Below are positions 30,801 to 48,516 of a stretch of 64,000 bases of DNA, piece after piece. This DNA is from Candidatus Omnitrophota bacterium. GTDB lineage: Bacteria > Omnitrophota > Gorgyraeia > Zapsychrales > Zapsychraceae. The translations under genes and the position numbers were made by a program. Under the pieces are notes generated by a model. The model was not told the DNA's origin. It searched no databases and saw only the letters and a program-made list of their open reading frames with translations. The stretch covers positions 82,132 through 146,131 of the forward strand of contig DATDQB010000013.1 of assembly GCA_035292445.1 (NCBI GenBank), read 5' to 3'. Position 1 is the stretch's first letter. Each line of letters starts with the position of its first letter.

Positions 30801-31268
30801 AGATGCGGTGAGCTGCTTGAGAATATAATCCTGGGCTAAAAGGTCGCGCCCCATTTCTGTATACCCGAGATTTCTGGGAATAATCCGATCTTCTTCATAG
30901 GGAGAAAGATTAACCCATAACTCCTCTGAAGGAACGGTAAGAGCTGCCAGAAAATATTTGACAAGCTTATCAGCCTCTTCTTTCAGGGCATCTCCATCAA
31001 TATTCACATCACCCGTATCGATAATAAAATCGAATTTTAATGCATCGTCGGAGTTGACGGTTATCGCCTTAATAAGAGGTGGCGTGAATATTGGACTTTG
31101 GGTAAGCAATGTCCCCGGCGTGGGTAGCTGCAGGGCGCTGGAACCGACGGTTTGAGCGGAACTAAGATAGGGAGTTAAAACAAGGTGGCAGGAGAAACAA
31201 AGCACTGTTAAACAGCTTAAAAATCGAAAGCCTGGTTTGCTTCTTTTTCTTCGGGATAAAACTTCCAT
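27900..31268 (-). CDS. Giant-family paralog D (1122 aa), the minimal member: signal peptide, conserved N-module, ~700-aa low-complexity Ala/Gln/Ser/Thr-rich region, conserved C-module.
   Basis: GAGGA/GGTGGA lies upstream of the ATG at 31268. Signal peptide: MEVLSRRKRSKPGFRFLSCLTVLCFSCHLVLTPYLSSAQ. The N-module shares TVPSEELWVNLSPYEEDRIIP, TEMGRDLLAQDYILKQLTASLMYPE and PEIEKEVNEGENFANLRQIYNAMILATWYK with the other paralogs. The C-terminus is GGIDLNMAMLNLVVQREGNGVQMT...GGFEPVITRVERDL. Confidence 0.8.
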   Translation of the reverse strand: MEVLSRRKRSKPGFRFLSCLTVLCFSCHLVLTPYLSSAQTVGSSALQLPTPGTLLTQSPIFTPPLIKAITVNSDDALKFDFIIDTGDVNIDGDALKEEADKLVKYFLAALTVPSEELWVNLSPYEEDRIIPRNLGYTEMGRDLLAQDYILKQLTASLMYPENQLGKEFWQKVQSKANELYGASDIPMNTFNKIWIVPDQAVVLERGNNAIVLDSHLKVMLEEDYLGLKENMDNKKFGTDRMQEDDVKKINAIASNVVREVIVPEIEKEVNEGENFANLRQIYNAMILATWYKQNLKESFLSQVYVDKNKIEGVDTQDRAVKEKIFDKYLETFQQGAYEYTTKEFDLETFSLVPKRYYSGGFAGDRAAQVVRAGTTQVSAEVPLAQAGLDEAMMTSVNRLLERATTNPERVARVSFALGNREPNAAQDMGITLPNMAAVLRTNAPSFNAELGRSLGQQGVPQEEISLVVGIVGDTLRRAPRSTTQEIMSVLSSRGISQQTLPTVEKSLPSLAQTVFERSTPQPVLVDVASGIAANQQLAGNAYSASVANRLIGEGEIEPAQARSVAATTAQVITRLRTQSPEAFSTPIQYEAAITAGLEREGIDRPTAVTAARIASDLDTMREVADQTQGRYQFNMQISVMPVLYAVNQPRMQSIVTSALQTDNFNEDEIAAVTPVMQNLREYGSLDQLEQKITEGLRIAQPQMPEDSVRNLASRVATKEVIDRINNLAGQAEEFKGVDSHLASSSTRFALVGDQRTNVINVAEALNRTTPLNPSEAQPAAQALVNVLAKPELLGDRDGLRSTYLTELRSLNVAEPLAQRMAGIVIDNSEGLSGRIYQAVAESSSAGDRMSYNPTLARVVVEAAMGQAFEDDYRDSLRAPEVSQFGLRFTSEEIQALPGQVAQLAERNPAALRSLSEFQAGLREVGAAPETAEKASNAFVVRQFGEVSSARQQSDTLLRLMPQNIANPQVFQDVFRPMAEQVMSASGIQSIDFEPIVTAFGDLARNNPQAFDGGEERLLSVLQQRPNISADSLARIREQRLISNMAQVIGRGMAQLDTGNRDSRGGIDLNMAMLNLVVQREGNGVQMTIAASTIENLNLGGFEPVITRVERDLNMQQELGLDR

Positions 31269-31514: not shown

Positions 31515-31605
31515 TTATATTTTTTGAATAGTGGCGCTTAGTATATCATTGGGTTTTGAAATTTGCAATTACTGTAAAATTACCCACTTATGCTATAATA
31601 CCGCC

Positions 31606-34600
31606 ATGCGAAAACGGATTATATTTATCTTATTGTCCCTGTTAATGTTAGGCACCATCGCCTTCTTCTACGTCCAAAACATCCTCATCCCCATTAAAGT
31701 AAAACAGTTTATCGAAGAAAAGGCCCAAGATTACTTAAAAAGAAAGATCGAAATCGCCGACATCCAATTCAAGCCCTTCCAGGGCTTTCGATTCATCAAT
31801 ATAAAGATCTATGAAAAAGACGCCCCTGAGACACTGTTTTTCTTCGCGGATGAAGTGCGTTTTCAGATCCTCTTCGCGGCCTTCTTTCAACATAAGACGT
31901 TGATCGTACCTTCCCTCCAGTTGGTCAAACCCACCCTGCATTTGACGCGCGATGAAACCGGCGCCTGGAACATCGCTGACCTTCTCAATCTTAAACAAGC
32001 CAAAGACGAGCGGATGGAGTACACCTTCTTCGTACGAAAATTCATCCTGGAGAAGGCAACCGCCGACTATGCCGATCACAGCAAGGATACAAAATTCTTT
32101 GAATCGTACGAAAACATTGATCTTGATGCGGCCATTTCTTTCGACCGCTCCATCCATTACGAAATAGCCGTTGACCTTCCCATAAGAAAGGCCCGCCTTA
32201 AATCAACAGGAACCATTGCCGCGGCAACCAAAAAGATATCTGCACAGCTGGCGCTTGATAATTTCCCGCTTTCCGATTACGTCAGTTTATTGACAAACGA
32301 CCAAAACCTCACCATGAAAGACACTTTTGTGACAACGCCCGATCTCACCATGAACTATCAAAACAATAGCCTGGACATCAAAGCAAGCCTTAAATTCCCC
32401 TCCTTCTTCCTTAAATATGCCGACGGACAGATCTCCGGCCCCTTTGATATTACCAACGCAAACTTTAAACATGAAAATAACGTACTGTATCTCTCGGGGA
32501 CCTTCAGCTCAGCGCAAGCTGTCTTCAAAAAATCCAATCTGTTTTTGTCCTCCCCCCTGTCATTAACGCTTAAAGCCTTAAGCTTGAAAAATAAAGAAAT
32601 AAAAATGTTGGCGGATTTGACCCTCAACAACGCCCAATTCTCGTGGTCGGAAAATAAATCCGTGCGCGGCCAGCTGATGATCCAGGACATCCGGCTCGAT
32701 AAAGCGCAAAGCAGCTCTCTCACGTGGCAGAAAGCGGTCTTGGAATCGGCTGAATTGATCTACGAAGACCGGTTAACTTTCAAGGGAAACCTTCTCATGG
32801 ATAAGCTCTCCTTGACCCATCAAAGCGATGACTTATCCATTGACGTACCTTTCCGTATTACAAAAGCGGATTGTGCGGTCGGCGAAGATAAGATCATCCA
32901 TTCCGACGTCTTGGCAAGAAAATTCCAGGGCCGCATCAAAGGCCGAAAATTGTACATCGATACCCTTGTTGACCTGCCCAACATGGAAATCCTCTTTGGC
33001 CAATTCCAGCGATTCCTCGGCAGCCCCAACATCGAGCTTCATACGATATTGGACCTTGGGCAAATAACGCCGCCTCTTTATAAAGGAAGCGTTACACTTA
33101 GCGATGTTTTGTTGGAAGGCATGAAGCCGGTCGGTGACATCACTCGGCTCACGGGAAAAGTATCTTTCGACAATGACGTCTTCTCCAGCGAGCAGCTGAG
33201 TTTCCGCGCCTTGGATAGCGATTTTCATGCTTCGGGCCAATGGTTCAATTCACAAAACCCAACAGCCGATATTCAACTTTCAACCGATAAAATTGATCTG
33301 TCACAACTGGCAAAGGTGTATCCGCCGCTAAAAGAAGATTATCAACTGATTCCTTCCGGGCCCGCTGCCATCGCCGCTAGTTATCAGGGACCTTTGTCTC
33401 CTTTCTCCGCAGGGTATCTTATGTTGGAATCACAATTGACAGGGGCCCATCTGGTATGGCAAAAGGGAAATAAAAAATTTTCCGACGTTTCAGGCCGGTT
33501 AACCCTTGGCAACGACCAGTTGATCTGGAAAAACCTCACCTTTGCCGTCGATGGCCAAACGTATAAAATGGAGGGCTCATTGAGCCGGCTGAAAACGCCT
33601 ATCATAGAAACCACCATTCAAAACGAACAGCTTGATGCCAAAACCATCCTTGCCTACATGGACCAAAGCTTTCGCGTTGATTCACTTAAGGGGCGGTATT
33701 TATCGTCAAGCTTTAATTTGAGCGGGGAATTCGGTTTCAATCGAAACGTCCGTTTGGAAGGAGACGGTGTTTTGAACCTGGAAGACCTGGCGGCATCACC
33801 GGGGCCGCTATCTCAACACATAAAAACGCTCCATCCGTTGGGCAGCCTGATGTGGAAAGGCTCATTCCTGGGCAATGCCGGTGATTGGAAAACCTCCGCA
33901 GTTAATGTGTCCGCTCAAACAAAGGCCATGAGATTATTCCATTACCCGATCGATAACGTAAACATCAATTTCAAACAAAAAAATCAATCCGTGCATGCGC
34001 TTTTAATGACGGCCAGCGTGTATGAGGGGCCGTTGAATATCGAGGCCAATATCGATCTCTCCAAAGACGGCGCGCCTTTCCAATCCACCACCAGCCTGGC
34101 GGACATGAACCTGACCGCTTATCGAAAGGATAAAAAGACAAAAAATGTGCATCTTTCCGGAAAATTGACGTGCGAATTCAATCTAAAAGGTGAACTGCTC
34201 GATCAGCCCAGCTACCAGGGAATAGGTTATTTCGCCATTACGGAAGCTTATCTGGGACAGCTTGTCCCACAGCTGAATGAAGCCATTTACACCGAGGCCA
34301 ACGCGGATTTTGTGATTAAGAACCGAAAAATAATCACCGAAAATGCCATGATCATTAGCAAAACCGTCGATCTTCTTGCCCAGGGATGGGTCGATTTTGA
34401 TAAAAATATCGACCTCGACATCACACCCGCCTTAAAACAAATCCAAAGAATCGATACCGGTTCCATCAAGATCGATCCCGCCACGTTTTTGACGCAGGCC
34501 GTCAGCCTTAAAATGACTGGAACTCTGGATAACCCAATCAAAAAAATCAACACCTCTGCCAGTAAGGTGTTCAAAAACACAACCGGTGTGATAAAGGAAG

Positions 34601-34632
34601 GGATTGGGAGTATTTTGGAGGAAATATTTTAG
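31606..34632 (+). CDS. AsmA-family outer-membrane biogenesis protein (TamB/YhdP-like): N-terminal TM anchor plus a long periplasmic beta-rich domain.
   Basis: The 1033-aa ORF at 31531..34632 likely starts at the internal ATG 31606 (MRKRIIFILLSLLMLGTIAFFYVQNILIPIK), because 31531 abuts tRNA-Pro. It has a single N-terminal TM helix, then the repetitive Ser/Thr/Asn/Gly-rich beta-strand pattern typical of the AsmA family. Confidence 0.6.
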   Translation: MRKRIIFILLSLLMLGTIAFFYVQNILIPIKVKQFIEEKAQDYLKRKIEIADIQFKPFQGFRFINIKIYEKDAPETLFFFADEVRFQILFAAFFQHKTLIVPSLQLVKPTLHLTRDETGAWNIADLLNLKQAKDERMEYTFFVRKFILEKATADYADHSKDTKFFESYENIDLDAAISFDRSIHYEIAVDLPIRKARLKSTGTIAAATKKISAQLALDNFPLSDYVSLLTNDQNLTMKDTFVTTPDLTMNYQNNSLDIKASLKFPSFFLKYADGQISGPFDITNANFKHENNVLYLSGTFSSAQAVFKKSNLFLSSPLSLTLKALSLKNKEIKMLADLTLNNAQFSWSENKSVRGQLMIQDIRLDKAQSSSLTWQKAVLESAELIYEDRLTFKGNLLMDKLSLTHQSDDLSIDVPFRITKADCAVGEDKIIHSDVLARKFQGRIKGRKLYIDTLVDLPNMEILFGQFQRFLGSPNIELHTILDLGQITPPLYKGSVTLSDVLLEGMKPVGDITRLTGKVSFDNDVFSSEQLSFRALDSDFHASGQWFNSQNPTADIQLSTDKIDLSQLAKVYPPLKEDYQLIPSGPAAIAASYQGPLSPFSAGYLMLESQLTGAHLVWQKGNKKFSDVSGRLTLGNDQLIWKNLTFAVDGQTYKMEGSLSRLKTPIIETTIQNEQLDAKTILAYMDQSFRVDSLKGRYLSSSFNLSGEFGFNRNVRLEGDGVLNLEDLAASPGPLSQHIKTLHPLGSLMWKGSFLGNAGDWKTSAVNVSAQTKAMRLFHYPIDNVNINFKQKNQSVHALLMTASVYEGPLNIEANIDLSKDGAPFQSTTSLADMNLTAYRKDKKTKNVHLSGKLTCEFNLKGELLDQPSYQGIGYFAITEAYLGQLVPQLNEAIYTEANADFVIKNRKIITENAMIISKTVDLLAQGWVDFDKNIDLDITPALKQIQRIDTGSIKIDPATFLTQAVSLKMTGTLDNPIKKINTSASKVFKNTTGVIKEGIGSILEEIF

Positions 34633-38200: not shown

Positions 38201-39043
38201 TTAGACTCCCTTTATCGTCTGAACATGGTCGATATCAAAGCCGAGAAAAGTACGGGCGATCTTTTTGAATTGCTGGGGCTTATCGCTGATGAGGAACTTA
38301 ACCTTTCCCCTGCTATGTTTGCGGTTCACCAATCCGAGCCGGCTTAAGGTATCTTTGACTTCACTGGCGACCTCTTTGGCCGAATCGATCAACGTGACTT
38401 TCTGCCCCATTGTCTTTCTTAATGTGTTCTTTAAAAGAGGATAATGCGTACAACCCAAAATCAACGTATCCACCTTACGCTTCTTTAACGCCTGCAGATA
38501 ACTGTCGGCGACATCAAGAGCGATTCTTTTGTTGAACCATCCTTCCTCGACCAAAGGGACGAACATGGGGCACGCCTGGGTGAACACCTGGGCGCTTTTT
38601 CTAAAGCGCTTGATGGTTTTAGGGTACTGGCCGCTGGCGATGGTTGCGGAAGTCGCGATAACGCCTACTCTATTATTACGCGTCTGGCTCGTCGCTTTTT
38701 TGGCGCTGGGGACAAGCACGCCGAGAATAGGAAGGGAAAAATTCCTCTTTAAAATGGGCATCGCATAACTCGAGCAGGAATTACAGGCCACCACCACGCA
38801 CTTGACTTTATGCTTTAAAAGGATCCTCGTATTTTCTTTTGAGAAACGGATAATGGTCTCTTTGGATTTGGTCCCGTAAGGCACGCGGGCGGTATCGCCG
38901 AAGTAAACGATATTCTCAAAAGGAAGTTGCCGGCGCAGTTCCTTGACGACCGTTAACCCTCCGAGGCCTGAATCAAAAACGCCGATGGCAAAGTTGCGCT
39001 TATTGGCTGTTGATATAATCAAGGATACCCCTGGCCAAGGCAT
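38201..39043 (-). CDS. murI: Glutamate racemase
   Basis: IGVFDSGLGGLTVVKEL...VVACNSCSS...LGCTHYP. The start codon is uncertain; the ORF overlaps the upstream amidase end. Confidence 0.8.
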   Translation of the reverse strand: MPWPGVSLIISTANKRNFAIGVFDSGLGGLTVVKELRRQLPFENIVYFGDTARVPYGTKSKETIIRFSKENTRILLKHKVKCVVVACNSCSSYAMPILKRNFSLPILGVLVPSAKKATSQTRNNRVGVIATSATIASGQYPKTIKRFRKSAQVFTQACPMFVPLVEEGWFNKRIALDVADSYLQALKKRKVDTLILGCTHYPLLKNTLRKTMGQKVTLIDSAKEVASEVKDTLSRLGLVNRKHSRGKVKFLISDKPQQFKKIARTFLGFDIDHVQTIKGV

Positions 39044-40043
39044 GCGCCAACTTTTGGCGATAGCCTTTATCTTTTAAAAGTTTCTCCTCTTTGGGATTGC
39101 TCAAATAACCCACTTCCACCAGAATGGCTGGGATTAACGTATTGCGCAAAACAAAAAAACGGCTCGTCTTAGCGCCGAGATTCTTTGCCTTTACATAACC
39201 AGCCGCCTGTTGTGATAACTCCTGGGCCAATTGGACTGATTGCCCCTGTTTATATGTATAGAGCATATCCCCGACAATGCTTTTTAAATTTTCATCGCTT
39301 TGATGCATCGATAACTGCCGATACAGCGTTTCTTGGTTTTCCTGCCGCTGGAGATCGTTGAGCTCAAAAAAATCCAAATCCTTCAAAGAATAGACCTCGA
39401 TGCCATTGACGCTTCTTCTGTCGTGAGCATTGGCATGGATACTCACAAAAAGATCGGCCTTCGACTCGCTGGCTAAAACCGTCCGGTCCTTCAAGGAAAT
39501 AAACTCATCCGTACGCCTGGTCATAACCACCTTGATGCCATGGCGCTCCAAGATCTGTTTGAATTTCTGCGCAATGTCCAAAACAACCGTCTTTTCGTAT
39601 AACCGGGAAGCGCCGATCGCACCGGGATCCTTTCCCCCATGGCCCGCATCAACGACCACCTTTCTAATCTTTCTTATGGAAAAATCTTCTTTACGGGAAA
39701 TCTGTTGCAGTAGCCGGTCCGTCACTTTTTCTTTAAAATCCGCCGGAACAATGACGGCACCGCGCTGAAGCTTTAAAGGCGCGCTTAAGACCACCTTTTC
39801 GTCATCGACCAGAACAATATCACTGCCGACCATCGCGTTGGCTGTCCCCGCCCCCCCATAAAGAAAGATCGCCTGAGAAACGGAATCCAGGCTGAAACTA
39901 ATATTATGTCGGTCGCACAGCTCTTTTAAAGACAGCTCTGCGGAAACAGCAGGCACCTTCTTGGAAGGCCGCGCCGTCGCACATCCTGCCAACAGGCACA
40001 CGCACAGAATAACGACGACATGCTTGAACGAATCTTTTCTCAT
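39000..40043 (-). CDS. N-acetylmuramoyl-L-alanine amidase (AmiC-like, Amidase_3) with an N-terminal lipoprotein-type signal and a possible AMIN domain
   Basis: VVVDAGHGGKDPGA...DLFVSIHANA...GIEVYS are Amidase_3 motifs. The N-terminus is VVILCVCLLAGC. Confidence 0.75.
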   Translation of the reverse strand: MRKDSFKHVVVILCVCLLAGCATARPSKKVPAVSAELSLKELCDRHNISFSLDSVSQAIFLYGGAGTANAMVGSDIVLVDDEKVVLSAPLKLQRGAVIVPADFKEKVTDRLLQQISRKEDFSIRKIRKVVVDAGHGGKDPGAIGASRLYEKTVVLDIAQKFKQILERHGIKVVMTRRTDEFISLKDRTVLASESKADLFVSIHANAHDRRSVNGIEVYSLKDLDFFELNDLQRQENQETLYRQLSMHQSDENLKSIVGDMLYTYKQGQSVQLAQELSQQAAGYVKAKNLGAKTSRFFVLRNTLIPAILVEVGYLSNPKEEKLLKDKGYRQKLAHALARGILDYINSQ

Positions 40044-40048
40044 ACCTT

Positions 40049-41608
40049 TTATGGTGAAATCGTATTGACCGTCAGAAACACGATGATTTCCGTATTACGT
40101 AATTGCTCTCCCTCGCTTTGAAACGCAAAGCCCAGTATCGGTAAATCGCCCAATAAGGGAATTTTCCGCAAGGACTTGACAAATACTTCCTTTAGCATAC
40201 TTCCGATAACGATCGTCGCCCCGTTTTCCACCTCCATGATAACCGGTTCCTGGGCTTTTTCCTCGGCCAGGAGCCCTCGCTCTCTTTCCTCGCCATCGCC
40301 AATACCGGGTAAAACACGAGTTGCGCTTTTGATAATATCGGCCCCCATGGCAACGCTTCGTATAAGAATATTTTTTCTCGGTTTCTGCTGGCCATTTTCA
40401 TCGACAACGACATAAACGGAAGGCTGGATTTCAACGGTAATCGCGTTATCCTCCTGCCATTGGGGGCTCAAAACAAATTTAACATCCCCCTCTCTTAATT
40501 CAAATCCTACCTGCGTATGATCCTCTTCTACGCGCGCAATCTCCTGCACGGGAATAAGAAATTGGGCCTTACCGTTACTTTGGGTCATTAATTCATCGAC
40601 AAAAACCGTCTTAATGGCTCCGACGGTTTCCAGTGCCTCCGTTAAAATAACCAGATCTTCGGCCGAGATGGTCCCCATGCTGATTTTGTTCTCTTCCACG
40701 GCCAAGCGAGGGGTATCAAAGACATCGAAAGGCAGGCTTTGATAGGTGGAAACGATCGCTTCCCAATCGACTCCCGTTTCATGCTCGTCGCTTAAGATAA
40801 TCTGAATCACTTTGACATCGATCTGGATTTCTTTGACAGTATCCAAGATCCTGATCAATCGTTCGATCTCCTGGACATTCGAGAGCCTGTCAGTCACCAG
40901 CAAGCTATTTTTTTCCGCATTGACTTCCACCCTGCCGACTTTGGCCGTCAATTTCTCGGTGACCTTCTTGGCCACCTCGGCGGCGTCCGCATTTTGAAGA
41001 GCGATCTCTTTACTTTCCATAGGCACATCCAGCTCTTTAATGACCTTTTCCATCGATGCCAACGTGTCCGGGTGGTCTATCAGAATGAATGAATTGGTTT
41101 CTTCGTTATAGATAATCTTGCCAGAAGGGGTTTTCAGCTGATTTAAAGTGTCCATCAAATCCTGCGCTTTAAGATAGACCAGCGGGATAATACGTGTCTG
41201 GATTTTTTTACCGAATGCCTGACCGTACTGTTGCTCAAAAACGCTTTCAGGCATGACACGGATGCTTTTTTGCTCTTTGCCGTCAATCATCTCTGTTCCC
41301 TCGCTAAAAGCCAGATCGAGCTTCTCTAAGATAATTCTTAAGGCACTGAGCACATCAATATCTGTCAGGAAAATGTCCACCCGGCCCCGGATCTCTCCCT
41401 CAACCTTTATGGGATAAGAGCTCTTTTGGGAAATCTTTTGTAATACCTCGCTGATGTCGGCCCCTTCCGCTTCCAGGATTTCAATATAACCTCCGTCCCT
41501 TAACTCCAGCGTGACGGAAGGATCCTTCAGCTCTTGAGCTTTAAGAGGCCCTGGGCACCAGATAAAAACATTCATCAACAAAAATGTAACTAGATAAATA
41601 TTTCTCAT
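40049..41608 (-). CDS. Secretin-family outer-membrane channel (GspD/PilQ/CpaC-like), 519 aa from the internal Met
   Basis: Two Secretin_N-like repeats (IIPLVYLKAQDLMDTLNQL...NSFILIDHPDTLASMEKVIKELD and IALQNADAAEVAKKV...NSLLVTDRLSNVQEIERLIRILD) and a secretin C-domain ending KIPLLGDLPILGFAFQSEGEQLRNTEIIVFLTVNTI. The start is likely the internal MRNIYLVTFLLMNVF signal peptide. Confidence 0.7.
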   Translation of the reverse strand: MRNIYLVTFLLMNVFIWCPGPLKAQELKDPSVTLELRDGGYIEILEAEGADISEVLQKISQKSSYPIKVEGEIRGRVDIFLTDIDVLSALRIILEKLDLAFSEGTEMIDGKEQKSIRVMPESVFEQQYGQAFGKKIQTRIIPLVYLKAQDLMDTLNQLKTPSGKIIYNEETNSFILIDHPDTLASMEKVIKELDVPMESKEIALQNADAAEVAKKVTEKLTAKVGRVEVNAEKNSLLVTDRLSNVQEIERLIRILDTVKEIQIDVKVIQIILSDEHETGVDWEAIVSTYQSLPFDVFDTPRLAVEENKISMGTISAEDLVILTEALETVGAIKTVFVDELMTQSNGKAQFLIPVQEIARVEEDHTQVGFELREGDVKFVLSPQWQEDNAITVEIQPSVYVVVDENGQQKPRKNILIRSVAMGADIIKSATRVLPGIGDGEERERGLLAEEKAQEPVIMEVENGATIVIGSMLKEVFVKSLRKIPLLGDLPILGFAFQSEGEQLRNTEIIVFLTVNTISP

Positions 41609-41726
41609 AATAGTACTATTCAAATTAATATTTATGGAAAGTAGTGCCCCTATTTTTATACAAGGAAAGAAAACTGTCAAGCTTCATTTAAGAATCCCCC
41701 TTTAAAACGCCTTTAATCCGAGCGGT

Positions 41727-43001
41727 TCATCTGTTTTCTCTATTTTGCAGGAGTTTTTGCCTGATTGGGAGGGCTTCCCGGTAACGGCCTAATTTCTCTA
41801 AGACCGCGGCCTTCGTGTCCAGAAAGATCTTATCGTCCGGAAAATAAGATAGCGCCTCGTTAATGGCTTCCAGCGCGGCATCGATATTCTGGTTTTCCTC
41901 CAAATAAAGATGCGCCAGCTCGTGGTGCGCATCGGCCAAATCCGGCTCTTTTTCGATAGCTTGATGCAATAATTCCACCTTTTGGACGAAGTTTAATTGA
42001 TCAAAATTCGCCTGGTATCGAACATACGCCGGGTTGGAGACCATCATCATAATGGCAGGAATAAAGGTCACGGCGGCGTTATAAACATAATGCATCACGC
42101 AACTGGCGATCGTGGATCGGGTCCACGCCCGCATGAGCGTCAACGTAAACCCGATAAGCGCGATCATCACAAGTGCGAGCCAATCCCCCCAATATTGCCC
42201 CACATGCAAAACAGCGAAAGACAAAGAAATAACGATGATGGTGAATTTGCTTCCCTTTAGCTGCCGCAACACATGGAAAAGATATCCGCGGAAAATGATC
42301 TCCTCGACCAGCGGGGCCACGCCAACGGCCATCAAGAGAAAGACCAAAAGAATGTACGAAGACTGCGTTTCACTGATGATCTCGCCAAGAGGCGTTGAGG
42401 GCGTTATTTCCCGGGCAAAAACGATAAAAACGGATAAAACGGCGAACCCCAACCCCGCCAAAGACGGCAAAACAAATAATTTTAAGAAACCGTTGGGCCC
42501 TCTGATGAAACCCACATTATAAAAGAATCCCTTGTCAGAAAATCTGCGACTGGCCTCATAAACCAATACCAAAAGAAGGATCGAAGAGCCGACCGCGGAA
42601 AATATCATCTCGCCTAACAACGAGTCGAAATCAAGGACGGATTCGAAATAAACCCCCACCAACGTGGATATGATCCCACCGCCGAGAATCCACATCAAAA
42701 CCACGCCGAAAGCGTCAGCCGCCAGATGAAACCGCTGTTGTCTTTGGCCCAGGGCTGCCACAAACTTGAATCGCTTGATAAGATAATACGGCAAGAAAAC
42801 AAAGAAAACCACGATAGCCAACGCCTGCGCTTTTTCTTGGGCCAAAATCAATACAAGGACAATAAAAAACGCCAGCAAGGCAAGATAAGCATTTCTCAAA
42901 TAAAAATTCTCTGTGAATAAACGCTCATCTTCTTTTTTTAAAAAACGCGCATCAAAGAAAACGACCAAAAGAAGCAGGCTTAAGGCTAAGATAAGCATCA
43001 T
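41727..43001 (-). CDS. CPBP-family intramembrane metalloprotease (CAAX protease/Abi-like) with a C-terminal TPR-like tail
   Basis: A multi-TM protein with the EEIIFRGYLF motif and downstream His. The start at 43001 gives an ATGA overlap with the upstream rsm gene's stop. The C-terminal ~70 aa (LHQAIEKEPDLADAHHELAHLYLEEN...) look TPR-like. Confidence 0.65.
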   Translation of the reverse strand: MMLILALSLLLLVVFFDARFLKKEDERLFTENFYLRNAYLALLAFFIVLVLILAQEKAQALAIVVFFVFLPYYLIKRFKFVAALGQRQQRFHLAADAFGVVLMWILGGGIISTLVGVYFESVLDFDSLLGEMIFSAVGSSILLLVLVYEASRRFSDKGFFYNVGFIRGPNGFLKLFVLPSLAGLGFAVLSVFIVFAREITPSTPLGEIISETQSSYILLVFLLMAVGVAPLVEEIIFRGYLFHVLRQLKGSKFTIIVISLSFAVLHVGQYWGDWLALVMIALIGFTLTLMRAWTRSTIASCVMHYVYNAAVTFIPAIMMMVSNPAYVRYQANFDQLNFVQKVELLHQAIEKEPDLADAHHELAHLYLEENQNIDAALEAINEALSYFPDDKIFLDTKAAVLEKLGRYREALPIRQKLLQNRENR

Positions 43002-43933
43002 AACCTCTGTAGTTTGGCGATAAAAAACGCGTCCCAAAGCCTGTCGGGCCGGATACGGGCACAGGCGCTCACCAAGGAGTTATATTTTTTATTTTTCCAC
43101 TCCTTAAGGGCGGGATAAACCGGTGCGCCGGTAATTTGAATATGTTCCGGATGGACAGCGCCGTCCATTTTACGCAGGACCCAATCGATGACCCCTTCGT
43201 TTTCCTCCGGAGCAAAGGTACACGTGGAATAAACCAACGTCCCGCCCGGCTTCAACAATTGACACCCGCGCAATAAAAGGCCTTTTTGCTTCTTCTGCAT
43301 TTCCTTTATCTTTCGCAGGCTCCAATAAGCGAATGTTTCGGGATCATTGGTATCGAAACGGCCCTCGCTGCTGCAGGGGGCGTCCACGAGCACCTTGTCA
43401 AATAGCAAGTCCTTGGGCCGATAGCGCCTGCCGTCGAAACGCTTGCACTCAACGTTTATAACCCCTAAAATCCCTAGAACTGACTTTAATTTGTAAAAAC
43501 GCGATGGGACGGGCTCGATAGCAACGATGCGGCCCTGACTGTTCATCATCGCCGCTATCAGGCTCGTCTTGCTTCCCGGCGCCGCGCACAGATCCAAAAC
43601 AGCCTCCCCCGGCTTAGGGTCCAGGATCTTCACGGCCGCTATGCTGGATAAATTCTGAAAATATACCTTCCCCTCTTTGATCAAATCCGATTGAAGAAGC
43701 CTTTGCCGTTCTTGAGCGGAAACCGTCAAGACCTCATCAAAAACAGGATGTTCCTGAAAAGGAATTTGATTCTTTCTTAAAATATCCAAAACGGTTGATT
43801 TGGCTGCCTTTAACAGATTGATACGAACGGACCATTGTTCCTTTGGGGAAAGGCTGGCCAACACATCCTTTCCATCTTCGGCAGGAATAATAGCGTCTAA
43901 GCGTTGCAAAAACTGTTCGGGGAATAAAGACAT
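42998..43933 (-). CDS. NOL1/NOP2/Sun-family RNA cytosine-C5 methyltransferase (RsmB/RsmF-like)
   Basis: LDLCAAPGSKTSLIAAMM (SAM-binding), DKVLVDAPCSSEG and TLVYSTCT (catalytic Cys motifs). Confidence 0.75.
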   Translation of the reverse strand: MSLFPEQFLQRLDAIIPAEDGKDVLASLSPKEQWSVRINLLKAAKSTVLDILRKNQIPFQEHPVFDEVLTVSAQERQRLLQSDLIKEGKVYFQNLSSIAAVKILDPKPGEAVLDLCAAPGSKTSLIAAMMNSQGRIVAIEPVPSRFYKLKSVLGILGVINVECKRFDGRRYRPKDLLFDKVLVDAPCSSEGRFDTNDPETFAYWSLRKIKEMQKKQKGLLLRGCQLLKPGGTLVYSTCTFAPEENEGVIDWVLRKMDGAVHPEHIQITGAPVYPALKEWKNKKYNSLVSACARIRPDRLWDAFFIAKLQRL

Positions 43934-44015: not shown

Positions 44016-45263
44016 ATGCCCAACCCACTCCAAAAGATGACAAACCGCCGTGGCCAGCACGTCATGGAATATTCGATTGTTCTTATTATCACCATGGTGG
44101 CCATGATGATCGCCCTTCCTCATGTCATGCGAGGCTGGAACGCCAACATGAAAGGATGGGAAGACTCCGCCATTGATTCTCTCGAAGACCCCCTCTTGGA
44201 AGCGCCTGTTGTCACCTCATTGCCCGGTTGCGCCTGCAACTGGTCTATGCCCCTTGGTTGCGGCAATGGCTCTTGTTCTCGACAACAAATGGCTAGTCAA
44301 TGTATTTGTAATCCTCCTGGTTGCGGCTCAACAAATCTTACACTAAATTGCACGGAAGGAACTTATCAATGCCCTTGCGATTCGACATGCTGCGAACCTT
44401 GGCAGCCGACGGGCCTTTGCGGTGCCGCTGCCAATCCTCCTTGCCTGACCGGAGAGATGCGAAAAACACGCCTTTGTGGTTGCAACCCCACACCCCAATC
44501 GCAATGCCTGCCCGATCCGGCATGTACATTCGCCTGCCAAGGCATTAACGGAAATCCTCCCGGGATAGACCAGCCACTGAATTCGCAAGAATGCCCAAAC
44601 TATGAGAGTTGTCTGAGCCAAAATAGGAGGAATGTTTTGGTGGACGCTTGTAGCGGAGGGTGCGACCATTGCGAATATATTTGTACTGCTCCCTTTTTTG
44701 CCAATAATAACCAGTGCACAACCTGCCCCATCGGTAAAGTTTTTCAAGGGGTTTGTACTACCGGCCAATGCCAATACACGACAGCCTGTTCCGGAGGGAC
44801 GTGTCAAACAGTCGGCGCTCCGCCGCCGCTACCGCCACCTACATGCGGCACAAATGGCTTACCCTGTTGTACAGGTAACGTTTGCAATGCCGGTCTACTT
44901 TGCAGCAATGGGACTTGTATACCATGCGGCAATCCGAGTGAAGCCTGTTGTACTGGGAGCGTTTGTTTTTCTAGCACATGCATTAATGGTACCTGTGTAT
45001 GCGGCGATCCCGGCCAGTCGTGTTGTGCGGGCGGCGTTTGCAATAGCGGCTTAAGTTGTAATAGCAGTTATCTTTGTTCATGCGGCGACATTGATGAAGA
45101 TTGTTGTAGCGGTGGTACTTGTAACGGAGCTCTTCAATGTAACGGCGTTGGTAAATGCTGCCCCATCACTTATACCGGTTACTGCAGTATAAGCAGAAAT
45201 TGTTGCGAGGTCGATCTCGACTGCCCTCCATCCGAATCCTGCGTATATATCCCCCTTCCATAA
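44016..45263 (+). CDS. Secreted Cys-rich repeat protein with an Flp-type (class III) prepilin-like leader
   Basis: AGAGGGA lies 8 nt upstream of the ATG. The N-terminus RRGQHVMEYSIVLIITMVAMMIAL fits the Flp G/XXXXEY motif plus a hydrophobic helix. The remainder is ~15% Cys, with ~25-aa repeats (CCTGNVCNAGLLCSNGTCIPCG, CCTGSVCFSSTCINGTCVCG, CCAGGVCNSGLSCNSSYLCSCG, CCSGGTCNGALQCNGVGKCC) and a PPPLPPP linker. Confidence 0.7.
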   Translation: MPNPLQKMTNRRGQHVMEYSIVLIITMVAMMIALPHVMRGWNANMKGWEDSAIDSLEDPLLEAPVVTSLPGCACNWSMPLGCGNGSCSRQQMASQCICNPPGCGSTNLTLNCTEGTYQCPCDSTCCEPWQPTGLCGAAANPPCLTGEMRKTRLCGCNPTPQSQCLPDPACTFACQGINGNPPGIDQPLNSQECPNYESCLSQNRRNVLVDACSGGCDHCEYICTAPFFANNNQCTTCPIGKVFQGVCTTGQCQYTTACSGGTCQTVGAPPPLPPPTCGTNGLPCCTGNVCNAGLLCSNGTCIPCGNPSEACCTGSVCFSSTCINGTCVCGDPGQSCCAGGVCNSGLSCNSSYLCSCGDIDEDCCSGGTCNGALQCNGVGKCCPITYTGYCSISRNCCEVDLDCPPSESCVYIPLP

Positions 45264-45360
45264 CTCTAATTAAATATTCCTGATAAGAACGCCTGTCTTT
45301 TAAGGTAAAAAATTATAGCTGGCGGGGCGGTGTTCTGGATAGAAAACAGTTTAATGTTAA

Positions 45361-45810
45361 TTATTGTGCCGGCCAAGCGCCGACCGTATACCAATATTCA
45401 TAACCCCATGGGTCGTCGCCATTCGTGTCACGAAAACACACTTCAACCTGAAACACTACCCTTCTGGAGGAGGAATCCATACCTGCGGAACCCATAATCC
45501 TTATACTTCCAAGGTCATAATGGTGGTCACCGTTATTAAACCTGAAATGCCACGCCCGTAATGCGACAATAGGTTCGCCAACCAAGGCTTGATTAAAATC
45601 CACTATCTCGGGCTGAGTAATACACGGCGTGTTGGACCCAACATTGGTCCAGGGACGATGCAGCTCTTTTACTACGGGCGCATAAGGGATGCAAACCGGT
45701 TGTTGGGCGCATGTTTCGCGGGGAATTAAATAATCTCCTATGGAGCACAAAATGGAGATGATCAAACAGGAAAGGATAATATAATAAACATTTTTATTCA
45801 ACTTCTTCAT
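45361..45810 (-). CDS. Small secreted protein, paralog 1 of a 3-gene tandem family
   Basis: Starts at the internal MKKLNKNVYYIILSCLIISILC signal. Shares C-x-x-A-Q-x-C after the signal, a central DHHYDLGSIRIMGSAG-type block and a C-terminal W-x-A-Q with the two neighbouring ORFs. Confidence 0.55.
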   Translation of the reverse strand: MKKLNKNVYYIILSCLIISILCSIGDYLIPRETCAQQPVCIPYAPVVKELHRPWTNVGSNTPCITQPEIVDFNQALVGEPIVALRAWHFRFNNGDHHYDLGSIRIMGSAGMDSSSRRVVFQVEVCFRDTNGDDPWGYEYWYTVGAWPAQ

Positions 45811-45817
45811 ATCCACT

Positions 45818-46243
45818 TTATTGCCACCTTGCGATAACATAATGGGAACTAAACGCCATATTATCGTCATCATTACCGTCGTTAAGGCAACCTTGGGAAG
45901 TAAAATATACCTGAGATTGGTTAGAACCGGGAGCGGACATAAAGACTCTCATCTCATCTAGGTGATGGTCATTGCTCGTCGAATACCTTACTTCAAATCC
46001 CGCAGATGCCAACCACACATCAAGGCCGATACCTCCGCCTGCGGACACATAGGTCGGATTTGGATTTGGGGAGGCACAGCCCCCACCACTGCTCCCGCCC
46101 ACTACGCCATATGTGGCCGTAGGTCGAATCGTTGTGCAAGATTGGGCTTGTACACAATCAGGGACCTGAAGCTCATAGGCAAGGCTTATGGCAAAGATTA
46201 AAAATAATGATAAGAGTAATATACCCAATTTACGAATTTTCAT
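45818..46243 (-). CDS. Small secreted protein, paralog 2
   Basis: MKIRKLGILLLSLFLIFAISLA signal; CVQAQSC; DHHLDEMRVFMSAPGS; C-terminal ARWQ. Confidence 0.55.
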   Translation of the reverse strand: MKIRKLGILLLSLFLIFAISLAYELQVPDCVQAQSCTTIRPTATYGVVGGSSGGGCASPNPNPTYVSAGGGIGLDVWLASAGFEVRYSTSNDHHLDEMRVFMSAPGSNQSQVYFTSQGCLNDGNDDDNMAFSSHYVIARWQ

Positions 46244-46288
46244 TCTTTATCGATCCTTCTTTACCTAAAAAAATACTTACCATTCATG

Positions 46289-46750
46289 TTATTGCCAAGC
46301 ATAAAGAACAAAATAGACCTGATATTCGTGCGCATTATCGACGTTATCGTCATGTAAACAAACGTCAATATTAAACATGATGGTGCTCCCAGACGCCCGC
46401 AAAGTGCTATAATCTATCATCGTCCTTGCCCTTTTTAAATGTTCATCACCGGAAGCGGTATAATGCAAATACCAGCCTGTTAATGCCAAAACATAATTTC
46501 TCGGATTATCGGTAAACGTGAATCCGGGCCAACTTTTGTTGACCGACGCAACGACGCAGGCCTGAGAAGAGTTCCAGGACGTCCGGCCCGTCCACCAGTA
46601 TTCCACATAAGGATACACGTTATAACACGTTTGGGCATTGACACAGCGCGGGGTTTTAAAATCATAGAAAAAATAGACGGCAGCGATGACAAGAATCGAC
46701 AAAACAAAAAAAAGAAAGGATTGCTTTTTTTGTTTTTTATTTATATCCAT
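46289..46750 (-). CDS. Small secreted protein, paralog 3
   Basis: N-terminal TM/signal (FLFFVLSILVIAAVYFF); CVNAQTC; DEHLKRARTMIDYSTLRASGS; C-terminal YAWQ. Confidence 0.55.
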   Translation of the reverse strand: MDINKKQKKQSFLFFVLSILVIAAVYFFYDFKTPRCVNAQTCYNVYPYVEYWWTGRTSWNSSQACVVASVNKSWPGFTFTDNPRNYVLALTGWYLHYTASGDEHLKRARTMIDYSTLRASGSTIMFNIDVCLHDDNVDNAHEYQVYFVLYAWQ

Positions 46751-46819
46751 ATGATTATAATAGTCTTTGTATAAGTATAAATCATCTCTTTATATAATAC
46801 AATAACATCAACCCCTCAC

Positions 46820-47987
46820 ATGAAAAAGCATAACTTCAATTATTTAAACCAGTTGCAAGAAATTCTATTTCGACCCGTTGATCCTTCTTCCTTATCTCTT
46901 TTCAGGCTTTTTTTCGGTCTTATATTAGGCTGGTACGCTTTTCACCATATTGGGGCAAACTTGATCCACATCAAATATATCGATACCCATTTCCACTTTT
47001 CTTTATGGGGGCGGAGCATTTTGTGTCCCTGGATTGCCTGCGCAACCCCCAGCTGCGCCTTAAACCGATCCCTTTCTGGAACATCCTGATTCTCAGGGCC
47101 CAAATTGTCATTGTTTATTTCTTTGCCGGGATAGCCAAAATAAGCAAGGATTATTTGGACGGGCGCCAACTGCGCAGCCTTCTAATCAGCGATGATAGAT
47201 TGCCATTTCTGCAGTCCTTTGTATCGACAGAGTGGGGCATAACCTTATTTGTTTATAGCGGATTATTCATCGACTTACTCATCGGTTTTTTCTTGTGCTA
47301 CAAACCCACAAGGCCTTTAGCATTTTTTGTTGCCGTTATTTTTCATATAACCAACAAGTTGTTTTTCGACATCGATATTTTCCATCATTTCATGATCGCC
47401 ACCCTCATTCTTTTTGTCAAACCCGATGAACCCAGAAGGCTTTTGTATAAAATATTAAACTTTTTTAAAAAAACGGCTTGAAACCGCCCGTGTTTGAGGC
47501 CGGCTCGAAGAGCCCCCACAGATTATCCCGCCCTTTAATCAGCGCCTTCTTATTTTTATACCTGATGATCCAAGTCCTTCTGCCGTGGCGACATTTGCTC
47601 TATAAAGGCGATGTGAACTGGACGCGGGAGGGGCATCGCTTTGCATGGCGTTTAAAATCCAACGTTGTCGGCGGCGTCATGAGCATTATCGCCGTAGATC
47701 CTTCGACCGGTCAAATCACTCCCATTATTCCGTTCGATGACATCAGCCCGGAACAATACGTCCTCATGATTTATACCCCAGATATGTTATTGCAATATGT
47801 GCATTATCTTAAGGAAAAATTGGAAAAGCAGGGCATGAAAAATCCCATTATTAAAGTCGACGGCAAAATATCGGTCAACCGCAGGCCTTTCCATCCCTAC
47901 ATTGATAGAAATGTGAATCTTGCGGAAGAAAAATACAGGCTTTTTTCTTCCGCCGACTGGATCCTCCCCCCGCCGCCTGATCTTTAA
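46820..47987 (+). pseudogene. HTTM-domain (vitamin K-dependent gamma-carboxylase-like) membrane protein, split over three reading frames by two frameshifts at homopolymer runs
   Basis: The pieces 46820..47089, 47005..47481 and 47478..47987 lie in three different frames. Together they carry HTTM hallmarks: FRLFFGLILGWYAFHHI and NWTREGHRFAWRLKS. The frame changes coincide with GGGGG (~47018) and TTTTTTAAAAAAA (~47461-47473). Confidence 0.5.
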
Positions 47988-48043: not shown

Positions 48044-48268
48044 TTACGTCTGTTCGCTTTTCAAGACGCCTCTCAATTTTGTCGCAATCTTCGCATAGCC
48101 ATAACCCATAATAAAAATGAGCAAACCGATGAGGACCTGTGTGAAATCCTGATTAACCACATGAATGAATAACACCAGTACCCCTAAGAAAATGATAAAG
48201 ACACCGCTGCGGTAACAGGTACGACTTAAATTATCCAGCGCTTTGGCATTTTGCTCTTTCATAAACAT
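48044..48268 (-). CDS. Small membrane protein (74 aa, 2 predicted TM helices), last gene of the MIPS operon
   Basis: The ORF has hydrophobic helices FIIFLGVLVLFIHVV and LIGLLIFIMGYGYA. Confidence 0.35.
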   Translation of the reverse strand: MFMKEQNAKALDNLSRTCYRSGVFIIFLGVLVLFIHVVNQDFTQVLIGLLIFIMGYGYAKIATKLRGVLKSEQT

Positions 48269-48306: not shown

Positions 48307-48516
48307 TTATTTCTTCCTCATATATTTAAAAAAACTCCACAGGCAAATAAGCTGGGACGCAACAATGACGATGGCCACATATCCATGGAACCAAGAAACG
48401 AACGTTATAGTGGAGGCCATATGAACGACGAACAAAAAGGAAAAGAAAGCAAAGCACAAACCCCACAGCTCGGCTCGGGTGACAGGGTTGGGTGAGGGGT
48501 CCTGCGGTTTAGTCAT
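48307..48516 (-). CDS. Small membrane protein (69 aa, 2 TM helices)
   Basis: The ORF overlaps the MIPS stop by 8 nt. Helices: LWGLCFAFFSFLFVV and VAIVIVASQLICLWSFF. Confidence 0.35.
   Translation of the reverse strand: MTKPQDPSPNPVTRAELWGLCFAFFSFLFVVHMASTITFVSWFHGYVAIVIVASQLICLWSFFKYMRKK

What the first reader, a model, noticed from the sequence alone, without database searches (positions are those of the whole stretch)
45361..46750. Three tandem paralogs of a small secreted protein family next to the Cys-rich pilin-like gene
Three consecutive minus-strand genes (~140-155 aa) share an N-terminal signal or TM segment, C-x-x-A-Q-x-C right after it, a central D-(H/E)-H-(L/Y)-(D/K)...(S/A)-(P/S/L)-(G/A)-S block and a C-terminal (A/V)-x-W-(P/Q/x)-A/W-Q. 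Paralog 1 most likely starts at the internal Met (45810), not 45873. Tandem triplication suggests diversifying small secreted subunits, possibly minor pilins or chaperone-usher-like partners of the adjacent Flp-leader protein, or a small toxin/immunity-type family.
Basis: seen in the sequence. Interest (0 to 1): 0.5.

Follow-up and report, generated by a model that had tools for sequence, protein, structure and literature searches.

The report
Three-gene split beta-prism binding module
Three neighbouring genes of an uncultured Omnitrophota bacterium encode related small exported proteins of an undescribed family that elsewhere occurs as one or exactly three copies per protein, so they most likely assemble into one three-part, lectin-like binding unit on the cell envelope.

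Summary
Three intact minus-strand genes (A 46289-46750, B 45818-46243, C 45361-45810) are true paralogs (pairwise BLASTP E 1e-6 to 2e-17). The internal Met at 45810 is the better start for C.

They are not recent, diversifying copies. The same A-B-C order recurs in seven other metagenomic loci, and each position behaves as its own orthologous lineage.

The family has no Pfam, NCBIfam, PADLOC, PHROGs or PDB sequence match. An exhaustive profile search still found 174 relatives. Its signature is G-W...D-H-H...D-x-N-x-D-D. Polypeptides carry one or three modules and never more. The triple form is attached to subtilases, transglutaminase-like proteases and BNR/sortilin propellers.

Best reading (about 0.5): a Sec-exported heterotrimeric binding module. 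What it binds is unknown.

Neighbours: a Cys-rich Flp-type pilin-like gene lies downstream in 5 of 5 informative loci. A vitamin-K-carboxylase-like HTTM gene lies upstream in 4 of 5, and is a pseudogene here.

The minor-pilin, chaperone-usher and toxin/immunity readings are unsupported.

The parts
46289..46750 (-). N-terminal basic and hydrophobic helix (residues 1-32). CVNAQTC at 46625-46645. Beta-sandwich module at residues 42-153, with LTGWYLHY (46460-46483), DEH (46439-46447) and CLHDDNVDN (46334-46360).
   Evidence: ORF. Paralogy. AlphaFold pLDDT 91.3 with helix 3-32 followed by 7 strands. A-type orthologs in L006, L007, L014, L015 and L075. Motif coordinates.
45818..46243 (-). Gene B (paralog 2), 141 aa. 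Signal or anchor at residues 1-22. CVQAQSC at 46136-46156. GGGC (Cys56). DHH at 45962-45970. CLNDGNDDD at 45863-45889. It starts 45 nt after the stop of A.
   Evidence: B-type orthologs are the best-conserved position (30-46% identity). NJ bootstrap 0.83.
45361..45810 (-). Gene C (paralog 1), 149 aa from the Met at 45810. CAQQPVC at 45691-45711. LRAWHFRF at 45538-45561. DHH at 45520-45528. CFRDTNGDD at 45412-45438. It starts 7 nt after the stop of B.
   Evidence: Start choice: overlap with B, orthologs and gene calls. This is the most divergent position (25-34% identity between orthologs).
46751..46819 (.). 69-nt divergent intergenic region between gene A and the HTTM-like gene. It holds a promoter-like site for A: TTTATA, 16 nt, TATAAT at 46781-46754 on the minus strand.
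   Evidence: Consensus scan, 10 of 12 matches. This is a consensus match only. No intrinsic terminator-like site lies inside 45200-46900, which fits one A-B-C transcript.
46820..47987 (+). Decayed HTTM / vitamin-K-dependent gamma-carboxylase-like gene (HTTM plus VKGC lumenal domain), transcribed divergently from A. It lies in three reading frames and lacks about 70 residues (59-128 of the intact ortholog).
   Evidence: Pfam HTTM and VKGC_lumenal_dom on three ORFs. tblastn against the intact 463-aa L015 ortholog. DNA is identical in five independent assemblies. Intact copies sit next to the triplet in L006 and L015 (two copies) and a partial copy in L075. It is absent in L014.
44016..45263 (+). 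Conserved neighbour: a 415-aa Cys-rich protein with an Flp-type leader (RRG/QHVMEY followed by a hydrophobic stretch). It is convergent with gene C, with 97 nt between the stop codons.
   Evidence: Sequence. 45% identical homolog in the same position in L006. Partial homologs convergent with C in L007, L012 and L076. No Pfam family.
40049..41680 (-). Context only: a secretin gene (PilQ/GspD-like) in the RsmB, CPBP/TPR, secretin, amidase, MurI gene string that is divergent from the Cys-rich Flp-like gene.
   Evidence: NCBIfam and Pfam secretin hits. The same CPBP, secretin, amidase, MurI string lies next to a shorter Flp-like Cys-rich gene in L008, which has no triplet.

Best explanation
A, B and C are the three subunits of one extracytoplasmic, pseudo-threefold beta-sandwich assembly: a 'split' double-layered beta-prism or lectin-like trimer. 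Each subunit is made with its own N-terminal Sec signal or membrane-anchor helix.

Shown:
- The three are homologous, and the three-gene cassette and its order are conserved.
- The module belongs to a wider, unannotated family (G-W...D-H-H...D-x-N-x-D-D, with one covarying Cys pair).
- That family occurs as one or exactly three modules per polypeptide.
- The triple module is an accessory domain on secreted hydrolases.
- The module is confidently predicted as a beta-sandwich.

Inferred:
- One A, one B and one C pack around a pseudo-threefold axis, as the three repeats of the single-chain relatives are predicted to do.
- The assembled unit is a binding or targeting module (for glycan, peptide or membrane, possibly using the conserved His/Asp/Asn cluster for a metal or ligand), not an enzyme.
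- In this probably host-dependent nanobacterium it acts at the cell surface, possibly with the adjacent Cys-rich Flp-type pilin-like protein and the nearby secretin.
- Cleavage after the conserved A-Q-(S/T/A/G) would leave the conserved Cys as the first residue. Whether the helix is cleaved or kept as an anchor is not settled.
For: Paralogy: BLASTP E 1e-6 to 2e-17.

Cassette: the same three-gene cassette in the same order is seen in L006, L007, L012, L014, L015 and L076, with a partial copy in L075. No locus of this clade shows one, two or four copies where the DNA is complete.

Positional orthology: within-type identity is 34% against 25.5% between types. NJ bootstrap is 0.87 for A, 0.83 for B and 0.45 for C when L015 is left out.

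Operon-like spacing: gaps of 45 and 7 nt, with no terminator-like site.

Family: 174 hits in an exhaustive profile search. Module number per polypeptide is 3 in 81 proteins, 1 in 58 and 2 in 23. Among the two-module proteins about half show a gap the size of one module, and many of the rest have modules at a protein end, as truncation would give. None has more than 3.

Disulfide: Cys2 and Cys3 covary over 186 modules (55 both, 122 neither, 9 discordant), which points to a disulfide.

Partner domains: the triple module follows Peptidase_S8 or precedes transglutaminase-like domains, and also accompanies Sortilin/BNR and DUF11. That is the behaviour of a targeting or binding module.

Distant members: single-module relatives in other phyla are solitary genes, as expected for homotrimers.
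Against: There is no direct evidence of physical association.

The fused model is an artificial single chain. Its alignment consists of natural three-repeat proteins, so the packing is borrowed from them. pTM 0.88 shows compatibility, not a heterotrimer.

A multimer prediction could not be run, and the model coordinates could not be inspected.

A, B and C do not map one-to-one onto repeats 1, 2 and 3 of the fused forms. The split form therefore arose by gene triplication, not by fission of a fused gene.

The C clade has weak bootstrap support, and the L015 copies do not sort cleanly.

No ligand is known for any member of the family.

The HTTM neighbour, if functionally tied, is not explained by this model.
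Confidence: 0.5

Rival explanations
1. The three are separate lectin-like proteins. Each forms its own homotrimer with a different specificity, giving a small repertoire of binders rather than one heteromer.
For: Distant single-module relatives are solitary genes and must work alone or as homo-oligomers. H-type lectins, the best single-domain structural match, are homotrimers (PMC6048534). A, B and C have type-specific sequence features kept across genomes, which could reflect distinct ligands.
Against: The count of three and the fixed order are strict in every complete locus. This matches the one-or-three rule for modules per polypeptide. The spacing is tight and operon-like. A repertoire would be expected to vary in copy number between genomes that are only 50% identical in RsmB.
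Confidence: 0.2
2. The three form a pilus-associated complex. Anchored by their three N-terminal helices, they would sit at the base or tip of a filament built from the neighbouring Cys-rich Flp-type pilin-like protein and exported through the nearby secretin. [quoted passage not shown]
For: The Cys-rich Flp-leader gene is convergent with C in 5 of 5 informative loci. A secretin gene lies 3.7 kb away. The architecture is an N-terminal hydrophobic helix followed by a beta domain. The best single-domain fold match is the H-type lectin, a fold that CofB uses as a trimer at the pilus tip (PMC6048534). Tad pili are a proposed host-interaction device in Omnitrophota (PMC10066038).
Against: No prepilin-peptidase site is present: there is no conserved Gly before the hydrophobic stretch and no Glu at +5, in any of 17 N-termini read. 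There is no pilin, TadE or TadF Pfam match. The genes are convergent with the Flp-like gene, not co-transcribed with it. Four homologs of the Flp-like gene in other genomes lack the triplet. No Tad ATPase, platform or peptidase gene is in the window.
Confidence: 0.12
3. The three are substrates or partners of the divergently transcribed HTTM / vitamin-K-dependent-carboxylase-like membrane enzyme. The conserved stretch between the helix and the domain (Y-D-x-x-x-P-x-C-x-x-A-Q-x-C) would act as the recognition element, and the acidic D-x-N-x-D-D loop or other residues would be modified.
For: An HTTM plus VKGC-lumenal gene lies head-to-head with gene A in 4 of 5 informative loci, and is duplicated in L015. 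This holds at 50% RsmB identity. Bacterial HTTM enzymes are known or predicted to act with, or on, neighbouring gene products (bioRxiv 10.64898/2026.08.19.745780, which cites MloH).
Against: In this window the HTTM gene is a pseudogene, and in L014 it is absent, while A, B and C stay intact. 54 other HTTM loci (31-42% identity) hold no family member within 6 kb. Single-module and triple-module relatives have no HTTM neighbour. No Gla-domain match and no conserved Glu cluster is present (alignment). The adjacency may be inherited gene order, since the unrelated RsmB is conserved alongside.
Confidence: 0.08
4. The three are a small secreted toxin / immunity or bacteriocin-like set.
For: The proteins are small, carry Cys and have export signals. 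A CPBP (bacteriocin-processing-type) protease gene is nearby.
Against: There are no toxin, immunity or defence family hits in Pfam, NCBIfam, PADLOC or PHROGs. All three share one fold, whereas a toxin and its immunity protein would differ. Relatives are accessory modules on large secreted hydrolases. The cassette is conserved and syntenic rather than mobile or variable.
Confidence: 0.02

Closest known systems
Double-layered beta-prism domains: PCSK9 C-terminal V-domain (CHRD, modules M1-M3) and the APCbeta domain of apicomplexan perforin-like proteins
   Different: No sequence similarity to PCSK9 or APCbeta was detected, and aligned identity is about 6%. The subtilase of P0067 is an ordinary bacterial subtilisin, not a proprotein convertase. 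In the window the three modules are three separate genes, each with its own signal or anchor. The signature motifs (G-W, D-H-H, D-x-N-x-D-D) are not those of CHRD.
H-type lectins (Helix pomatia agglutinin, SLL-2, the discoidin I C-terminal domain; Pfam H_lectin)
   Different: There is no match to the Pfam H_lectin model or to the PDB sequences. Identity is 3-9%. The known proteins are homotrimers of one gene product. Sugar binding has not been tested for any member of the present family.
CofB/TcpB-type minor pilins of type IVb pili (H-type-lectin domain trimer at the pilus tip)
   Same: Both have an N-terminal hydrophobic helix followed by beta-rich domains. In CofB a threefold lectin-fold unit acts as a binding platform next to pilus genes (PMC6048534). 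Here the genes neighbour an Flp-type pilin-like gene and a secretin.
   Different: There is no class III (prepilin) signal and no pilin domain. The window proteins are far smaller (about 150 aa). They are three different chains rather than a homotrimer. This is an analogy only.
Resistin, C1q and TNF-type homotrimers versus their single-chain forms
   Different: The strand topology differs (jelly-roll) and there is no sequence relation.

Membership tests
H-type lectin (Pfam PF09458 H_lectin) | Significant match to the family's sequence model | tested here: not met
   Pfam scan of A, B and C at E<=1 gave no H_lectin hit. The family profiles find no H-type lectin among PDB sequences.
H-type lectin (Pfam PF09458 H_lectin) | Small antiparallel beta-sandwich that superposes on HPA, SLL-2 or discoidin | tested here: inconclusive
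H-type lectin (Pfam PF09458 H_lectin) | Trimer with a GalNAc-binding pocket at subunit interfaces | not testable with these tools
   No multimer prediction, model coordinates or binding data were available. The fused-chain model (pTM 0.88) is only compatible with a threefold arrangement.
Double-layered beta-prism (PCSK9 V-domain / APCbeta type) | Three beta-sandwich subdomains packed with pseudo-threefold symmetry | tested here: met
Double-layered beta-prism (PCSK9 V-domain / APCbeta type) | Three tandem repeats within one polypeptide | tested here: not met
   In the window the modules are three separate genes. The feature is met in 81 relatives.
Double-layered beta-prism (PCSK9 V-domain / APCbeta type) | Detectable sequence homology to CHRD or APCbeta repeats | tested here: not met
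   No PDB sequence hit was found with the single-module or triple-module profiles at E<=10.
Type IV / Flp (class III signal) pilins and minor pilins | Prepilin-peptidase site: Gly at -1 before the hydrophobic segment, with Glu at +5 or G/xxxxEY | tested here: not met
   The N-termini of A, B, C and 14 orthologs were read directly. There is no conserved Gly or Glu. The neighbouring 415-aa protein does carry G/QHVMEY.
Type IV / Flp (class III signal) pilins and minor pilins | Match to pilin, Flp, TadE or N-methylation models | tested here: not met
   No Pfam or NCBIfam hit.
Chaperone-usher fimbrial components | PapD-like chaperone, usher or fimbrial-subunit domains | tested here: not met
Toxin/immunity or anti-phage defence proteins | Match to known toxin, immunity or defence families | tested here: not met
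   Pfam, NCBIfam, PADLOC and PHROGs gave 0 families.
Vitamin-K-dependent carboxylase substrates (Gla proteins) | Gla domain or a conserved cluster of Glu after a propeptide | tested here: not met
   There is no Gla Pfam match and no conserved Glu cluster in the family alignment. Actual modification is not testable here.

The most novel reading that the evidence does not exclude
The cassette is a new kind of host-contact device of ultra-small Omnitrophota. A heterotrimeric, membrane-anchored beta-prism would cap or dock the filament or adhesin made from the adjacent Cys-rich Flp-type protein. In the ancestral state it would be matured by a bacterial vitamin-K-dependent-carboxylase homolog. That would make A, B and C the first candidate natural protein substrates or partners of a bacterial VKGC-like enzyme.
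Probability: 0.1. Interest if true: 0.75.

Novelty: new variant of a known kind. Interest (0 to 1): 0.45.

Why it matters
- It defines a domain family with no entry in Pfam, NCBIfam or the PDB. The family has a clear signature and a one-or-three copy rule.
- It gives a natural example of the same threefold unit built in three ways: one gene, three fused repeats, or three paralogous genes. That is useful for studying how heteromers arise from homomers.
- The module appears to be a common targeting domain of secreted bacterial proteases, including a PCSK9-like subtilase arrangement.
- For Omnitrophota, whose lifestyle is thought to be host-dependent, it flags a conserved surface cassette (triplet, Cys-rich Flp-type protein and a VKGC-like enzyme) as a candidate for host recognition.
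- It offers a concrete place to look for the unknown function of bacterial VKGC homologs.

Tried and rejected
- **Word-indexed homolog search.** The three-sequence profile found only the three proteins themselves. With a 41-sequence profile it returned 17 proteins, mostly from the distant subgroup. Only the exhaustive search opened the family.
- **Locus retrieval with family alignments.** The search for related loci with A3 and A4 failed because no stretch was conserved enough. I used the Cys-rich neighbour and the HTTM neighbour as handles instead.
- **AlphaFold-database fold search.** The library was not available.
- **Foldseek against the PDB.** Nothing significant for the fused model.
- **PDB sequence searches.** Profiles A2, A3 and A8 gave only chance-level hits.
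- **Paired alignment for the fused prediction.** Adding single-module proteins as separate rows misplaced them all on the B segment, so that alignment (A7) was dropped.
- **Gene-fission test.** HMMs of repeats 1, 2 and 3 do not discriminate A, B and C. The idea that A, B and C descend from repeats 1, 2 and 3 of a fused gene was rejected in favour of independent gene triplication.
- **General HTTM link.** 54 HTTM loci hold no family member, so a general link was rejected.
- **Lipoprotein reading of the Cys after A-Q-x.** Rejected on sequence. The residues before the Cys are not a lipobox (Gln at -2), and the Cys lies 10-14 residues beyond the hydrophobic core.
- **Close relation of the relatives' subtilase to PCSK9.** Rejected. 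P0067 matches ordinary subtilisins.
- **Assembly error as the cause of the split HTTM gene.** Rejected. The DNA is identical in five assemblies from different samples.
Full report
**Observation.** The three minus-strand ORFs exist as described: 46289-46750 (153 aa, called A here), 45818-46243 (141 aa, B) and 45361-45873. MAFFT aligns them over their whole length at 24-28% identity. Pairwise BLASTP gives E 2e-17 (A/B), 2e-12 (A/C) and 1e-6 (B/C). The resemblance is homology, not composition.

Each protein begins with a few basic residues and about 20 hydrophobic ones, followed by C-x5-C. In A and B this reads C-x-x-A-Q-x-C. In C it reads C-A-Q-Q-P-V-C. All three then have D-(H/E)-H, C-x-x-D-x-N-x-D-(D/N) and a terminal Trp.

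The third gene is better started at the Met at 45810, giving 149 aa. The longer form overlaps B by 56 nt. Its extra residues have no counterpart in any ortholog. Three of five independent gene calls use the short form.

The gaps between genes are 45 and 7 nt. No terminator-like site lies inside the cluster, and a promoter-like site lies just upstream of A. No further copy exists in the 64-kb window.

**Source.** The DNA is 100% identical to contigs assembled independently from five samples. The one named copy is from a Candidatus Omnitrophota MAG.

**The family.**
- Pfam, NCBIfam, PADLOC, PHROGs and PDB sequence searches gave nothing.
- The word-indexed protein search found only the three proteins themselves.
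- The exhaustive profile search found 174 relatives at E<=1e-3. They fall into three groups:
  - stand-alone proteins of 130-165 aa with the same N-terminal layout as A, B and C;
  - more distant stand-alone proteins with ordinary A-x-A signal peptides (two are named as Zixiibacteriota);
  - proteins of 280-1060 aa that carry the roughly 100-residue module in tandem.
- With an HMM built from 186 module instances, 81 proteins have three modules, 58 have one and 23 have two. About half of the two-module proteins have a gap the size of one module; many of the others have a module at a protein end and are probably truncated. None has more than three.
- Family-wide conserved positions are L-x-G-[WF]-x-[LF]-x-[YF], D-H-H-[IVL] and [LYF]-x-D-x-N-x-D-D. 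The second and third Cys covary (55 both, 122 neither, 9 discordant), which points to a disulfide.
- The triple module sits C-terminal to Peptidase_S8, N-terminal to transglutaminase-like domains, and with Sortilin/BNR propellers or DUF11. One such protein is named 'sialidase family protein' in a Thermoanaerobaculia MAG. This is the behaviour of an accessory binding or targeting module on secreted enzymes.

**The cassette.** Contigs carrying the closest stand-alone relatives show the same three genes in the same order.

| Locus | Upstream of A (divergent) | A | B | C | Downstream of C (convergent) |
|---|---|---|---|---|---|
| window | HTTM-like pseudogene | 153 aa | 141 aa | 149 aa | Cys-rich Flp-like, 415 aa |
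| L006 | intact HTTM, 417 aa | 163 aa | 141 aa | 148 aa | Cys-rich Flp-like, 395 aa |
| L007 | contig end | 150 aa | 139 aa | 146 aa | Cys-rich, partial |
| L012 | contig end | partial | 143 aa | 163 aa | Cys-rich, partial |
| L014 | no HTTM | 151 aa | 139 aa | 151 aa | contig end |
| L015 | two intact HTTM genes | 166 aa | 143 aa | 156 aa | 330 nt, nothing recognised |
| L075 | HTTM, partial | 164 aa | 176-aa family member | contig end | - |
| L076 (L077 is a shorter contig with the same C gene) | contig end | partial | 140 aa | 157 aa | Cys-rich, partial |

- Copies at the same position are more alike (mean 34%, range 22-45%) than copies at different positions (25.5%), including those within one locus (25.4%).
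- NJ bootstrap supports A at 0.87, B at 0.83 and C at 0.45 when the most divergent locus, L015, is left out. With L015 included, support drops and its A and C copies pair together.
- RsmB of the window and L006 organisms is only 50% identical. The triplication and its order are therefore old and maintained. This is not a recent diversifying expansion.
- A, B and C do not correspond to repeats 1, 2 and 3 of the fused forms. The split form arose by gene triplication.
- Distant single-module members are solitary genes.

**Structure.**
- AlphaFold2 of A with a 41-sequence alignment gave pLDDT 91.3, with one helix (residues 3-32) followed by an all-beta domain.
- To test whether three modules could form one unit, I concatenated the mature parts of A, B and C and aligned them with 35 natural three-repeat relatives. 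The model has pLDDT 85.6 and pTM 0.88.
- PCSK9 V-domain and APCbeta are described as double-layered beta-prisms with pseudo-threefold symmetry and inter-layer disulfides. PCSK9's modules are likened to the resistin homotrimer (PMC6294395, PMC9113161).
- Foldseek found nothing significant, so this is a fold-level resemblance only.
- Caveat: the fusion is artificial and the packing signal comes from the natural fused relatives. The result shows that A, B and C are compatible with such a prism, not that they form one.

**Neighbours.**
- *Cys-rich Flp-like gene.* Downstream and convergent lies a 415-aa Cys-rich protein with an Flp-type leader (G/QHVMEY). A homolog sits in the same place in all five loci with informative downstream DNA. 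Four more distant homologs of that protein in GTDB genomes have no triplet within 8 kb. These come from Omnitrophota, Ca. Zapsychrus and one MAG labelled Planctomycetales. In L008 the gene sits next to a CPBP, secretin, amidase, MurI string as in the window.
- *HTTM-like gene.* Upstream and divergent lies an HTTM plus VKGC-lumenal gene. Against the intact L015 ortholog it lacks residues 59-128 and changes frame twice. The DNA is identical in all assemblies, so it is a pseudogene. Intact copies flank the triplet in L006 and L015 (two copies), a partial copy in L075, and none in L014.
- From the HTTM side, 54 metagenomic loci with 31-42% identical HTTM proteins hold no family member. The HTTM link is thus confined to this clade and is dispensable here.
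- No Tad ATPase, platform or prepilin-peptidase gene is in the window.

**Interpretation.** The most economical reading is that A, B and C are three subunits of one exported, pseudo-threefold beta-sandwich unit. It would be a split version of the triple module that other bacteria fuse to secreted hydrolases, and it would serve as a binding module. The conserved His/Asp/Asn cluster is a candidate ligand or metal site.

I put this at about 0.5. The stoichiometry argument (three genes, fixed order, the one-or-three rule) is strong. Physical association and the ligand are inferred.

Rivals:
- three separate homotrimers with different specificities (0.2);
- a pilus-associated complex working with the Cys-rich Flp-type protein, by analogy with the CofB lectin-fold trimer at type IVb pilus tips (0.12; there is no prepilin site and the genes are convergent);
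- substrates or partners of the VKGC-like enzyme (0.08; the enzyme is decayed here and absent in L014);
- toxin/immunity (0.02).

Whether the N-terminal helix is cleaved is open. In the distant relatives the aligned position is an ordinary A-x-A cleavage site. In A and B types, A-Q-(T/S/A/G) precedes the conserved Cys. In C types the -1 residue is often not small, and the hydrophobic core is long enough for an anchor.

**Novelty.** The family is unannotated, and the three-gene form has not, to my knowledge, been described. The fold class and the logic (a threefold binding unit built from one, three fused or three paralogous chains) are known. I therefore rate it a new variant of a known kind, of moderate interest.

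Noticed in passing
window 46820-47987 (+): The HTTM / vitamin-K-dependent gamma-carboxylase-like gene is a pseudogene. It has a deletion of about 70 residues (59-128 of the intact ortholog) and two frame changes. The DNA is identical in five independent assemblies. Related loci keep one or two intact copies (L006, L015) or none (L014).
   Followed up: yes
window 14589-27587 (-) and 5097-12530 (-): Two giant ORFs carry metabolic-enzyme-like domains. The 4332-aa ORF has malate synthase TIM-barrel, isocitrate lyase and class-I aldolase domains. The 2477-aa ORF has UDPGP, phosphoglucomutase I and II and response-regulator receiver domains. These are unusual fusions in a phylum known for very long proteins.
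   Followed up: no
window 44016-45263 (+) with 38201-43933 (-): The Cys-rich Flp-leader gene is divergent from an RsmB, CPBP/TPR protease, secretin, Amidase_3, MurI gene string. The same string without RsmB lies next to a shorter (288-aa) homolog in the Omnitrophota MAG locus L008. No prepilin peptidase or Tad ATPase lies nearby. A role of the CPBP protease in processing is an open idea.
   Followed up: partly
L006 1647-1780 and 2298-2431: Genes A and B of this related locus share an almost identical first 29 residues and also the in-frame sequence upstream of the start codon (CDRR(L/P)RKMKK(S/E)KSYLILLLSIAIIFGLNIIYDFKKP). The rest of the two proteins is about 28% identical. This looks like gene conversion of the 5' ends between paralogs.
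   Followed up: no
P0067, P0164 (metagenomic proteins); L019 3081-6426: Some bacterial subtilases carry the triple module directly after the Peptidase_S8 domain, the same layout as PCSK9. In a Zixiibacteriota contig a solitary single-module gene lies next to a 766-aa Peptidase_S8 gene.
   Followed up: partly
window 27900-31268 (-): A 1122-aa ORF with no Pfam family at E<=1e-3. It lies next to a 1033-aa AsmA/DUF748/YhdP-like gene at 31531-34632.
   Followed up: no
window 48044-48268 (-) and 48307-48516 (-): Two small predicted membrane proteins (74 and 69 aa) lie between the HTTM pseudogene and the myo-inositol-1-phosphate synthase gene. In L014 the 74-aa homolog directly abuts gene A where the HTTM gene is missing.
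   Followed up: no
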